A stretch of 47,650 bases of DNA from a virus (lineage: Duplodnaviria > Heunggongvirae > Uroviricota > Caudoviricetes), in the IMG/VR virus record IMGVR_UViG_2541047798_000009, one strand, 5' to 3'. A model generated the notes under the pieces. It did not search any database, was not told the DNA's origin, and saw only the letters and a program-made list of their open reading frames with translations. Below are positions 16,681 to 18,065 of this stretch, piece after piece (within the stretch, counting starts at the first letter, position 1; each line of letters begins with the position of its first letter). The position numbers were made by a program, and so were the translations under genes.

Positions 16681-17007
16681 TCATAACACCGTCGGACAAC
16701 GCAAATCGTAAATCAGCACGGAAACAGAAAACGGCAGCTCCCCCTGAAGCAGTTCTTCCCGCTCCGCAAGATCCGGATTCCGGTACAGCATCCCGGTCAG
16801 TCGCATGGCAGCCCCCTTCATCCGGGTTAATGCCTCGCCCGGGATCAGTTCACCGTCCTCACGGATCACTTTATCCCGGCTGCCCTGAATGTAGGCCAGC
16901 AGCACGGCGGTAGCCTGACGAACCTTGTCCATCAGCATGTCATCATCCGCGTCATGGTCGACACGCAGATGTGCCTTGATCTCTTCCAGTGTCAGTAATG
17001 CCGTCAT
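16681..17007 (-). CDS. Head-tail connector protein (gp6-like, 108 aa)
   Basis: Small ORF MTALLTLEEIKAHLRVDHDADDDMLMDKV... typical of the head-tail connector position. Confidence 0.55.
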   Translation of the reverse strand: MTALLTLEEIKAHLRVDHDADDDMLMDKVRQATAVLLAYIQGSRDKVIREDGELIPGEALTRMKGAAMRLTGMLYRNPDLAEREELLQGELPFSVSVLIYDLRCPTVL

Positions 17008-18065
17008 TTTCCGCCTCCTGCATCCCGCCCACGTTTTGCAGCCAGGGTCCAGGCTGATGAATGAGCTTCTCCGGGTTTATCTTCGGTCATACTGTTGCAG
17101 TGCCACAGCGAGCCCCCCCACGTCACCGTATCGCCGGGGTGGTAGGTTTCACCGGCTCTGAACACACCGCGGTAGAGCATCACCGGCAGGGAAAATGTTT
17201 TTTCCGTACGCTGGCCACTGCTCTGCCGGACCACCACAGAGAACAACCGCTCACCCGTCATGCTGACGTCAATATCCGCCACCCCGTCAACCAGGCATTC
17301 CCATCCCCGCATCCCGTGCGTTTTTTCATACGCCCGCCAGAGTCCGCCCTGGTGTGTGGCATACGTGCCCCGGGGAAAGGATTTTTGCTCATCAATCGCC
17401 GGGAATATTTCCAGTGCCGTGGCATCACGCCCGTCCTGTGGAGCCGGCAGGGCACTCACCGCATCCAGAACCGCCTTCTGCAGAACTTCCGGATCGTAGT
17501 CACGACCGTCGCGCGGAACGGGGATATGACTCACTGCGTCCTTCACCATCTGCTCGATCATCGGGCGTACATCATCCGCAGTGACACTTTTACCGTCCGC
17601 CGGTACCGGTATTTTCGCGACCGCATCATTCACCGCCTGCTGCAGCACCTCCGGATCATAATCACGACCATCGCGCGGAGCAGGGATATGACTCACTGCG
17701 TCCTTCACCATCTGCTCGATCATCGGGCGTACATCATCCGCAGTGACACTTTTACCGTCCGCCGGTACCGGTATTTTCGCGACCGCATCATTCACCGCCT
17801 GCTGCAGCACCTCCGGATCATAATCACGACCATCGCGCGGTACCGGAATGGCCCCCACGGCGTCATTCATCATCGCCTGCAGAACAGGGCGCACCTCATC
17901 CACCGTCACATGCTTCTGTAACAGAGCAGACAGGGAAGCCAGTTTCTCTTCAAACGCCCCCGACTGTGCGGCCATCTTCTCCTCAAATGTGCGCTGTAAA
18001 TCCGCCAGCACCGTGGCGAATTCTTCACCCAGCGCACGGATAATGGACAGTTCACGCTCTGTCAT
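17004..18065 (-). CDS. Structural-module protein of unknown function with internal tandem 54-aa repeats (353 aa)
   Basis: Lies between portal and connector genes; contains two identical repeats DGRDYDPEVLQQAVNDAVAKIPVPADGKSVTADDVRPMIEQMVKDAVSHIPAPR plus a partial third. Confidence 0.5.
   Translation of the reverse strand: MTERELSIIRALGEEFATVLADLQRTFEEKMAAQSGAFEEKLASLSALLQKHVTVDEVRPVLQAMMNDAVGAIPVPRDGRDYDPEVLQQAVNDAVAKIPVPADGKSVTADDVRPMIEQMVKDAVSHIPAPRDGRDYDPEVLQQAVNDAVAKIPVPADGKSVTADDVRPMIEQMVKDAVSHIPVPRDGRDYDPEVLQKAVLDAVSALPAPQDGRDATALEIFPAIDEQKSFPRGTYATHQGGLWRAYEKTHGMRGWECLVDGVADIDVSMTGERLFSVVVRQSSGQRTEKTFSLPVMLYRGVFRAGETYHPGDTVTWGGSLWHCNSMTEDKPGEAHSSAWTLAAKRGRDAGGGK
17480..17840. repeat. 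Two near-identical in-frame 162-bp tandem units plus a partial third
   Basis: DNA at about 17521-17682 repeats at 17683-17844 essentially base-for-base. Confidence 0.85.

What the first reader, a model, noticed from the sequence alone, without database searches (positions are those of the whole stretch)
17004..18065. Perfect in-frame 162-bp tandem duplication inside a structural gene of unknown role
The 353-aa protein between portal and connector contains two base-for-base identical 54-aa units and a partial third. Perfect identity implies a very recent duplication or ongoing copy-number variation. Modular repeat proteins in head modules are often decoration or spacer proteins, and repeat number could tune a physical dimension.
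Basis: seen in the sequence. Interest (0 to 1): 0.45.

Follow-up and report, generated by a model that had tools for sequence, protein, structure and literature searches.

The report
Length-variable stalk protein next to portal
The 162-base in-frame repeat is real and recent, and it lies in a widespread, uncharacterised phage head gene beside the portal gene whose repeat number varies freely between near-identical E. coli prophages; the mechanism is ordinary, but the protein's role is unknown and databases mislabel it as a broken portal gene.

Summary
Window 17521-17678 and 17683-17840 are identical over 158 bp at a 162-bp period. The two 54-aa units differ by one residue, and a diverged partial third copy follows.

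It is a copy-number polymorphism. An E. coli genome carries the same gene with exactly one unit fewer and no other change in 900 bp. Relatives form a series of 245, 299, 353, 407, 461, 515 and 569 aa.

The ORF, here called X (PHROG 1289), is a real separate gene. It is joined to the portal gene and to the adaptor gene by ATGA overlaps. RefSeq calls portal+X one 'frameshifted portal' only because a derived E. coli clade fused them by turning a G5 run into G6. The split form is ancestral and is under purifying selection (pN/pS 0.19).

X has three parts:
- an N-terminal helix;
- a stalk of about 27-aa helix-loop modules, of which the repeat unit is two;
- a very conserved beta domain ending in a CBM5/12-like module.

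Function and location in the virion are not established. Portal attachment is inferred.

Verdict: an ordinary repeat mechanism in an uncharacterised, misannotated family. Interest is moderate.

The parts
17004..18065 (-). Gene X (353 aa, PHROG 1289): portal-adjacent modular protein that contains the repeat
   Evidence: ORF list. phrog_1289 matches over the full length at E 1.5e-177. pN/pS is 0.19 in the split clade. The exact protein is on 28 contigs.
17919..18065 (-). N-terminal amphipathic helix (aa 1-49), the presumed anchor or oligomerisation helix
   Evidence: AF2 models a helix at 3-49 with pLDDT 77-90. Distant homologues have an N-terminal segment of similar length and composition.
17433..17909 (-). 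Stalk of about 27-aa helix-loop modules (aa 53-211), acidic, variable in number
   Evidence: Module parsing. AF2 models 13-17-residue helices separated by 12-residue loops of low confidence. Net charge is -13.
17683..17840 (-). Exact repeat copy 1 (gene-proximal), 158 bp
   Evidence: Identical to 17521-17678.
17521..17678 (-). Exact repeat copy 2, 158 bp
   Evidence: Identical to 17683-17840.
17679..17682 (-). 4-bp junction between the exact copies, giving Ala instead of Val in 'HIPAPRDG'
   Evidence: It mismatches both flanking equivalents. It cannot be derived by simple duplication of the 299-aa sister allele.
17470..17520 (-). Diverged partial third copy, which is the last A-type module
   Evidence: TRF reports 2.3 copies. 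Eight mismatches against the unit.
17007..17432 (-). Conserved all-beta C-terminal domain (aa 212-353)
   Evidence: AF2 pLDDT is 91-96. 5586 clusters at 50% identity match at E<=1e-3. It is 50-65% identical where the portal is 45-47%.
17031..17177 (-). CBM5/12-like module (about aa 297-345)
18062..18065 (-). ATGA overlap: portal stop and X start
   Evidence: The same overlap occurs in phages BP-4795 and FSL SP-016.
17004..17007 (-). ATGA overlap: X stop and start of the head-tail adaptor
18077..18081 (-). G5 run (C5 on the + strand) in the portal tail codons AGG GGG ATA; G6 in relatives fuses portal and X
18062..19426 (-). HK97-family portal gene (454 aa) with a linker plus a terminal amphipathic helix as its tail
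   Evidence: PF04860 at E 1.9e-81. TIGR01537 ends at aa 388. Tail architecture is conserved.
16681..17007 (-). gp6-like head-tail adaptor gene
   Evidence: PF05135 and phrog_40.

Best explanation
SHOWN. The ORF is a real, separate, selected gene (X). It is translationally coupled by ATGA overlaps to the portal gene upstream and the head-tail adaptor gene downstream. It has three parts: an N-terminal amphipathic helix, a stalk of alternating 25- and 29-residue helix-loop modules, and a strongly conserved all-beta C-terminal domain whose last ~50 residues have a CBM5/12-like fold. The 162-bp repeat is one pair of stalk modules. The number of pairs differs between otherwise identical alleles, while both ends stay constant.

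INFERRED, mechanism of the variation. Unequal homologous recombination or replication slippage between near-identical 162-bp units adds or removes units in frame. Many paralogous prophage copies in one genome favour this. The window allele (353 aa) and the 299-aa allele are one such step apart. Because of the odd 4-bp junction, contraction from 353 to 299 is the simpler direction.

INFERRED, function. X is an accessory virion protein attached to the portal. Its N-terminal helix probably pairs with the amphipathic helix that ends the portal's flexible C-terminal tail. The stalk is a spacer of weakly constrained length that holds the conserved C-domain away from the anchor. Each unit would add roughly 4-8 nm (my estimate) and -4 charge. 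Portal C-termini lie inside the capsid in known portals, and portal-X fusions occur in viable phages. I therefore put the crown (inner) side at about 55% and an external neck or portal-vertex fibre at about 35%.
For: Repeat and allelic series.

Separate gene is ancestral:
- Salmonella phage FSL SP-016 and phage BP-4795 have portal and X as two ORFs with the same ATGA overlap. They also share the portal tail RG[IF]L[RKT]K*, and FSL SP-016 has no G run.
- Metagenomic relatives keep the order portal-X-adaptor-head closure with short overlaps.
- Most of the top 150 representatives of 5586 clusters are stand-alone 200-660-aa proteins with the domain at the C-terminus.
- AGA<->CGA in the tail is synonymous in the portal frame only.

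X is functional when split: it is intact in 38 of 45 G5 loci and 25 of 31 G6 loci. pN/pS of the C-domain is 0.19 versus 0.15.

Architecture. CBM5/12-like fold.

Link to the portal:
- Adjacency is conserved.
- In-frame fusion occurs in a large E. coli clade that includes phage 2851 (859 aa) and vB_EcoS-705R7.
- A second fusion with a different repeat type exists in P0180.
- Portal tails in all relatives end in a linker plus an amphipathic helix.

Stalk as a generic spacer: it runs from 0 to about 25 modules across the family and is replaced by a collagen-like G-X-Y run in L107.

Recombination substrate: 1247 of 5426 complete E. coli genomes have a match, with a median of 3 and up to 24 places per genome.
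Against: - No experimental evidence was found that X is in virions.
- The C-domain's structural neighbours are chitin-binding modules and collagen-like or tail-fibre viral proteins. That favours an exposed glycan-binding fibre tip rather than a protein inside the capsid.
- The stalk is modelled with low confidence and no tertiary packing, so its rigidity and length per unit are guesses.
- The oligomeric state is unknown.
- Two IMG/VR loci carry only an 85-aa in-frame remnant of X, so X may be dispensable.
- The portal fusion could be tolerated rather than informative if free X is still made from the retained internal ATG.
Confidence: 0.6

Rival explanations
1. External neck or portal-vertex fibre. 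X trimerises, anchors by its N-terminal helix to the neck, and presents a glycan-binding CBM5/12-like tip. Repeat number adjusts reach, for example to surface polysaccharide thickness. Portal-fused alleles would still make free X from the internal ATG.
For: - Fibre-like build of anchor helix, segmented rod and small beta tip.
- Collagen-like stalk or tails in homologues, which implies trimers.
- Structural neighbours are chitin-binding modules, collagen-repeat viral proteins and tail fibres.
- ATGA coupling to the adaptor gene.
- The ATG and a G-rich stretch upstream are retained in fused alleles.
Against: - Fusion to the portal C-terminus is common in viable phages. By established portal structures, my knowledge and not tested here, that end lies inside the capsid.
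- The C-domain is more conserved than portal or capsid protein across distant relatives, which is unusual for a host-recognition tip.
- No homology to known neck-fibre proteins was found.
Confidence: 0.3
2. Database reading: X is the dead 3' part of a long portal gene broken by a frameshift, that is a pseudogene in a decaying prophage.
For: PGAP annotates portal+X as one 'phage portal protein, frameshifted' in the 100%-identical genome and in GmF052. Fused ORFs of 779-859 aa exist. All top 120 homologues are fused.
Against: - The exact 454-aa portal-only ORF is on 339 contigs.
- The split form predominates in IMG/VR: 57 G5 against 41 G6 in the first scan, and 80 split-type junction matches among the session's loci after the second scan.
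- X is as intact and as constrained in split as in fused loci.
- The split with ATGA overlap and the same portal tail occurs in a Salmonella phage without a G run and in distant relatives.
- X has no portal HMM match.
Confidence: 0.04
3. Recoding: the G run is a slippery site. G5 phages would make some portal-X fusion by -1 slippage and G6 phages some normal portal by +1 slippage, setting a ratio of free to tethered X.
For: - A -1 slip of tRNA-Gly on AGG GGG A would give exactly the fused junction FRGD.
- A +1 slip on G6 restores ILRK*.
- The zero-frame stop lies 4 codons after the run.
- AUA and CGA, which are rare codons (my knowledge), follow the run.
- 79 of 80 split-type E. coli loci keep G5.
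Against: - There is no canonical X XXY YYZ heptamer.
- Downstream RNA structure is not significant (z -1.96, 8 of 200 shuffles as good).
- The Salmonella homologue has AGA GGA TTT, with no run.
- G5/G6 state is mostly clade-structured, as a fixed mutation would be.
- ATGA coupling already explains expression of X.
Confidence: 0.08
4. Assembly artefact: the second unit is a mis-assembly of a single-copy sequence.
For: Repeats shared by many paralogous prophages are hard to assemble. Many database hits are partial proteins at contig ends.
Against: The identical 1062-bp gene is in a complete genome. The exact protein is on 28 contigs. Alleles differing by whole units occur in many complete genomes and phage records. 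The whole array is only 371 bp.
Confidence: 0.02

Closest known systems
In-frame tandem-repeat (VNTR) length variation in phage structural proteins, e.g. BACON-domain repeats in crAss-like phages (PMC6949934) and repeats in tape measure proteins (PMC13585406)
   Same: Head-to-tail units that are a multiple of 3 bp. Copy number differs between close relatives. Units are kept near-identical by recombination. The result is a change in protein length, not in frame.
   Different: The gene is a portal-adjacent head-module gene of unknown role. The unit is a pair of short helix-loop modules, not a folded domain. No link between length and phenotype is known.
T4 fibritin (wac) neck whiskers (my knowledge, not tested)
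   Same: An N-terminal anchor, a rod of helical segments interrupted by loops, and a small C-terminal beta domain. The gene lies next to the neck genes.
   Different: No sequence or fold match was found. The C-domain of X is about 130 aa with a CBM5/12-like module. The trimeric state is untested. X is fused to the portal C-terminus in many phages, which fibritin never is.
SPP1 gp7 / Mu gpF minor head proteins and MuF polymorphic toxins (PMC5576092)
   Same: The gene lies immediately after the portal gene and is sometimes fused to it. This implies portal binding and a modular N-terminal anchor with a C-terminal 'payload'.
   Different: No Phage_Mu_F Pfam match. In X the C-terminal domain is the conserved part and the middle is variable.
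CBM5/12 chitin-binding modules (PF02839)
P22 portal C-terminal barrel and other portal C-terminal extensions (my knowledge)
   Same: In fused alleles, a long, largely helical extension follows the portal crown.
   Different: X is ancestrally a separate gene. It ends in a beta domain and varies in length between near-identical phages.

Membership tests
In-frame VNTR in a coding gene | Head-to-tail units whose period is a multiple of 3 | tested here: met
   Period is 162 bp, or 54 codons, with 2.3 copies.
In-frame VNTR in a coding gene | Copy number differs between otherwise near-identical alleles | tested here: met
   Window versus GmF052 differs by exactly 162 bp with no other change. The series runs 245-569 aa.
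HK97-family phage portal protein (PF04860 / TIGR01537), the name databases give this ORF | Match to the portal profile | tested here: not met
   X has no PF04860 or TIGR01537 match. Both models lie wholly in the upstream ORF and end by aa 388.
HK97-family phage portal protein (PF04860 / TIGR01537), the name databases give this ORF | Being one reading frame with the portal | tested here: not met
   The frames differ by one base at a G5 run. The split is the conserved ancestral state.
gp6-like head-tail connector (PF05135), the name NCBI gives many homologues | Match to PF05135 | tested here: not met
   Only the downstream ORF 16681-17007 matches. X and its homologues do not.
CBM5/12 carbohydrate-binding module | Pfam PF02839 at or above the gathering score | tested here: inconclusive
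   22.0 bits against a 26.2 cut-off in the window protein; 29.8 bits in homologue P0156.
CBM5/12 carbohydrate-binding module | Characteristic small beta fold | tested here: met
CBM5/12 carbohydrate-binding module | Binds chitin or another glycan | not testable with these tools
   Needs the recombinant C-domain with glycan or peptidoglycan binding assays.
Programmed ribosomal frameshift site | Canonical slippery heptamer and a stimulatory downstream structure, conserved in relatives | tested here: not met
   There is no X XXY YYZ heptamer. RNA fold z is -1.96. The Salmonella homologue lacks the G run.
Mu F / SPP1 gp7 portal-associated minor head protein | Homology to Phage_Mu_F | tested here: not met
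   No such Pfam or PHROG match. Only the gene position is shared.
Fibritin-like trimeric fibre | Trimeric segmented coiled-coil rod attached to the neck | not testable with these tools
   Only a monomer model is available and the stalk has low confidence. Collagen-like stalks in homologues hint at trimers.

The most novel reading that the evidence does not exclude
X would be a portal-tethered, length-tunable appendage found in thousands of HK97-like phages. The G5/G6 run would be a natural switch, genetic and possibly translational by slippage, between free and covalently portal-bound forms. The stalk VNTR would then set how far a conserved glycan-binding or DNA-facing domain sits from the portal. 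That would be a new accessory component of the portal vertex with heritable, rapidly adjustable geometry.
Probability: 0.12. Interest if true: 0.7.

Novelty: new member of a known kind. Interest (0 to 1): 0.38.

Why it matters
- It corrects a systematic annotation error. In E. coli RefSeq genomes this gene plus the portal gene are labelled one 'frameshifted' portal pseudogene, and homologues are named 'portal' or 'gp6-like connector'. That makes intact prophage head modules look defective.
- It flags a very widespread head-module protein (5586 clusters at 50% identity). Its C-domain is more conserved than the portal or the capsid protein, yet it has no known function or structure.
- The allelic series of 0 to 6 extra units in otherwise near-identical Shiga-toxin phages is a ready-made experiment on whether stalk length matters.
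- The 162-bp VNTR could also serve as a typing marker for these prophages.

Tried and rejected
- **Assembly artefact:** rejected, because the same allele is in a complete genome and on 28 contigs.
- **Broken portal pseudogene:** rejected on selection, intactness and conservation of the split across phages of other hosts.
- **Programmed frameshift as the needed way to express X:** not supported. There is no heptamer, no significant structure and no G run in the Salmonella homologue. It is kept only as a low-probability extra.
- **Solved homologue:** none found beyond the CBM5/12 motif, by single sequence or by profile.
- **NCBIfam:** no family for X.
- **Literature:** no description of this protein or its repeat. 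The phi330 paper did virion mass spectrometry but reports no data for this protein. The Serratia phage paper was irrelevant.
- **Simple duplication of the 299-aa allele as the origin of the window allele:** does not fit the 4-bp junction.

Full report
**Observation**

The window carries one long tandem array at 17470-17840, with period 162 bp, 2.3 copies and TRF score 686. An offset scan shows a single exact run of 158 bp: 17521-17678 equals 17683-17840.

- The array lies in frame in the 353-aa minus-strand ORF 17004-18065.
- The two 54-aa units differ at one residue (HIPAPRDG versus HIPVPRDG), because the 4 bp between the exact copies differ from both flanking equivalents.
- Each 54-aa unit is two sub-modules of 25 and 29 residues. 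Each sub-module is a short helix followed by a P-x-P-x-D-G loop. The protein has about 6.5 such modules.
- It is not an assembly artefact. The same 1062 bp occurs at 100% identity in the complete genome of E. coli B20123, and the exact protein is on 28 contigs.

**Setting**

The window is a whole lambdoid siphovirus prophage. It has an integrase, replication genes, two tRNA genes, a nanS-like esterase, a porin, terminase, and head and tail genes including a J-type tip protein.

On the minus strand the head module reads as follows:
- large terminase;
- protease-capsid fusion;
- a 73-aa ORF;
- HK97-type portal (18062-19426);
- the repeat ORF, here called X;
- gp6-like adaptor;
- head closure protein;
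- gp10-like protein;
- gp17-like protein;
- tail tube protein.

X overlaps the portal stop and the adaptor start by ATGA in each case.

**Copy-number variation**

- E. coli GmF052 has the same gene with exactly one 162-bp unit missing and no other difference in 900 bp.
- Among IMG/VR contigs that carry the locus, intact X proteins are 245, 299, 353, 407, 461, 515 or 569 aa long, in steps of 54.
- Phage records and complete E. coli genomes show match spans of 900, 1062, 1224, 1386 and 1548 bp.
- Units within one allele are often long exact copies of each other, so the array is being reshuffled continually.
- 1247 of 5426 complete E. coli genomes carry a match, with a median of 3 and up to 24 places per genome. 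This gives ample substrate for unequal recombination.
- The 4-bp junction of the window allele cannot be made by simply duplicating the 299-aa allele. Deleting one unit from the window allele does give the 299-aa allele exactly. The contraction is therefore the simpler direction, although an inter-allele crossover could also have built the window allele.

**Is it a gene or part of the portal?**

RefSeq annotates portal plus X as a single 'phage portal protein, frameshifted'.
- Phages vB_EcoS-705R7 and 2851 have single ORFs of 779 and 859 aa.
- All 120 best homologues are such fusions.
- The difference is one base. The window has TTCAGGGGGATACTG (G5, at 18077-18081) and the fused forms have G6.

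The split is nevertheless real, common and ancestral.
- The exact 454-aa portal ORF is on 339 contigs.
- In IMG/VR, 57 loci are G5 and 41 are G6. After a second scan, 80 split-type junction matches were counted among the session's loci.
- The two states are largely clade-structured, with a deep and diverse G5 clade.
- Phage BP-4795 (ORF58/ORF59) and Salmonella phage FSL SP-016 have two ORFs with the same ATGA overlap and the same portal ending, RG[IF]L[RKT]K*. FSL SP-016 has no G run at all.
- Three metagenomic relatives keep portal-X-adaptor-head closure as separate, slightly overlapping genes.
- AGA<->CGA variation in the tail is synonymous only in the portal frame.
- X is intact in 38 of 45 G5 loci and 25 of 31 G6 loci.
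- pN/pS of the C-domain is 0.19 in G5 and 0.15 in G6.
- X has no portal profile match. The portal models end by residue 388 of the upstream ORF.

The 'frameshifted portal' label is thus an artefact of using derived fusion proteins as the reference.

**What X looks like**

An exhaustive search with the last 153 residues finds 5586 clusters at 50% identity at E<=1e-3, and 2062 at E<=1e-10. Most of the best 150 are stand-alone proteins of about 200-660 aa with this domain at the C-terminus.

- Homologues have from zero to about 25 stalk modules. One has a collagen-like G-X-Y run in place of the helical modules, and some have collagen-like tails.
- AlphaFold2 models residues 3-49 as one helix (pLDDT 77-90). 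The stalk is modelled as 13-17-residue helices separated by 12-residue loops, with low confidence and no packing. Residues 215-345 form an all-beta domain at pLDDT 91-96.
- In the viral structure library its neighbours are collagen-repeat, CBM5/12 and tail-fibre proteins.
- The stalk is acidic, with net charge -13 and -4 per unit.
- Across distant relatives the C-domain is 50-65% identical where the portal is 45-47%, the capsid protein 43-50% and the adaptor 27-32%.

**How it most likely works**

Shown:
- The repeat unit is a pair of stalk modules.
- The number of units changes in frame between otherwise identical alleles.
- Both ends of the protein are conserved.

Inferred: unit gain and loss come from unequal recombination or slippage between units.

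Inferred: X is attached to the portal. The reasons are:
- invariant adjacency and translational coupling of the two genes;
- two independent in-frame fusions to the portal C-terminus, namely the E. coli G6 clade and P0180, which has a different repeat type;
- the portal tail in every relative examined is a Pro/Ala/Ser/Asp-rich linker ending in a short amphipathic helix, and in fused alleles this helix runs straight into the N-terminal helix of X.

In solved portals the C-terminus lies inside the capsid (my knowledge). The fused allele is carried by phages 2851, 705R7 and Lys8385Vzw, which are recorded as phage isolates or induced phages. I therefore favour a position on the crown side of the portal at about 55%.

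The fibre-like build and the chitin-binding-like tip argue instead for an exposed neck fibre, at about 35%. In that case fused phages would rely on the retained internal start codon.

In either case the stalk acts as a spacer whose length is weakly constrained or adaptively variable. The estimate of about 4-8 nm per unit is mine and is not measured.

**What was excluded**

- A programmed frameshift is not needed and is poorly supported. There is no canonical heptamer, the downstream RNA fold has z -1.96, and the Salmonella homologue has no G run.
- No solved homologue exists and there is no NCBIfam family.
- No paper describing this protein or its repeat was found. The one virion mass-spectrometry study of a related phage (phi330) reports nothing for it.

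**Verdict**

The mechanism is an ordinary in-frame VNTR.

What is mildly new:
- the gene is a very widespread, highly conserved, uncharacterised companion of the portal;
- databases misname it;
- a one-base G-run change fuses it to the portal in a large clade of Shiga-toxin phages.

Its function and its location in the virion remain to be shown.

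Noticed in passing
window 18077-18081 (G5 on the minus strand) and 18062-18065: A one-base difference in a G run (G5 here, G6 in phage 2851 and many Stx phages) decides whether portal and X are two genes or one 779-859-aa ORF. RefSeq/PGAP labels the ancestral split form a 'frameshifted' portal pseudogene.
   Followed up: yes
window 32106-32182 and 32192-32267 (minus strand): There are two prophage tRNA genes, tRNA-Arg(tcg) and a tRNA called Met(cat). The second could be an AUA-reading Ile tRNA, as in Stx phages (my knowledge). The portal's last codons after the G run include AUA and CGA, codons these tRNAs could read. This may be coincidence.
   Followed up: no
IMG/VR loci L040 and L080: In two relatives X is reduced to an 85-aa in-frame remnant that keeps only the extreme C-terminus. 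X may therefore be dispensable, or those prophages may be defective.
   Followed up: partly
L107 6045-6998; protein P0180: In a metagenomic relative the helical stalk of X is replaced by a long collagen-like G-X-Y run. P0180 (1237 aa) is a portal fused to an X with about 25 'PEPLPDI' modules, which is a second, independent-looking fusion.
   Followed up: partly
window 19372-19593 (minus strand): A 73-aa ORF between the capsid gene and the portal gene overlaps the portal start. It is annotated as a conserved hypothetical protein in relatives, and small ORFs also sit between the capsid and portal genes in distant relatives.
   Followed up: no
window 14759-15607 (minus strand): The tail tube protein carries a C-terminal Ig-like domain (Ig_2/Ig_3/I-set, aa 194-278). 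The longest ORF probably starts too far upstream, since relatives annotate about 238 aa.
   Followed up: partly
window 14371-14772 and 14066-14347 (minus strand): A pair of tail assembly chaperone ORFs sits between the tail tube gene and the tape measure gene (called 'chaperone' and 'protein T' in relatives). This is the usual place for the G/GT -1 frameshift. The slip site was not looked for.
   Followed up: no
window 23364-23417 and 407-446: There are two other small tandem repeats. One is 27 bp x 2.0, in the region where the terminase small- and large-subunit ORFs meet. The other is 11 bp x 3.6 (96% matches), near the left end of the window.
   Followed up: no
window 28839-30800 (minus strand) and 33037-34179 (plus strand): The prophage carries cargo genes: a nanS-like sialate O-acetylesterase (DUF1737-SASA-DUF6645) and a full-length general porin (Porin_1). 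No stx genes were seen among the ORFs scanned.
   Followed up: partly
Literature: PMC2669165, Table 1: The O157 Sakai prophage survey scores the portal function of several lambdoid prophages (Sp3, Sp6, Sp9, Sp12) as defective. If that call rests on the same G5 'frameshift', those portals may be intact. The loci were not checked.
   Followed up: no
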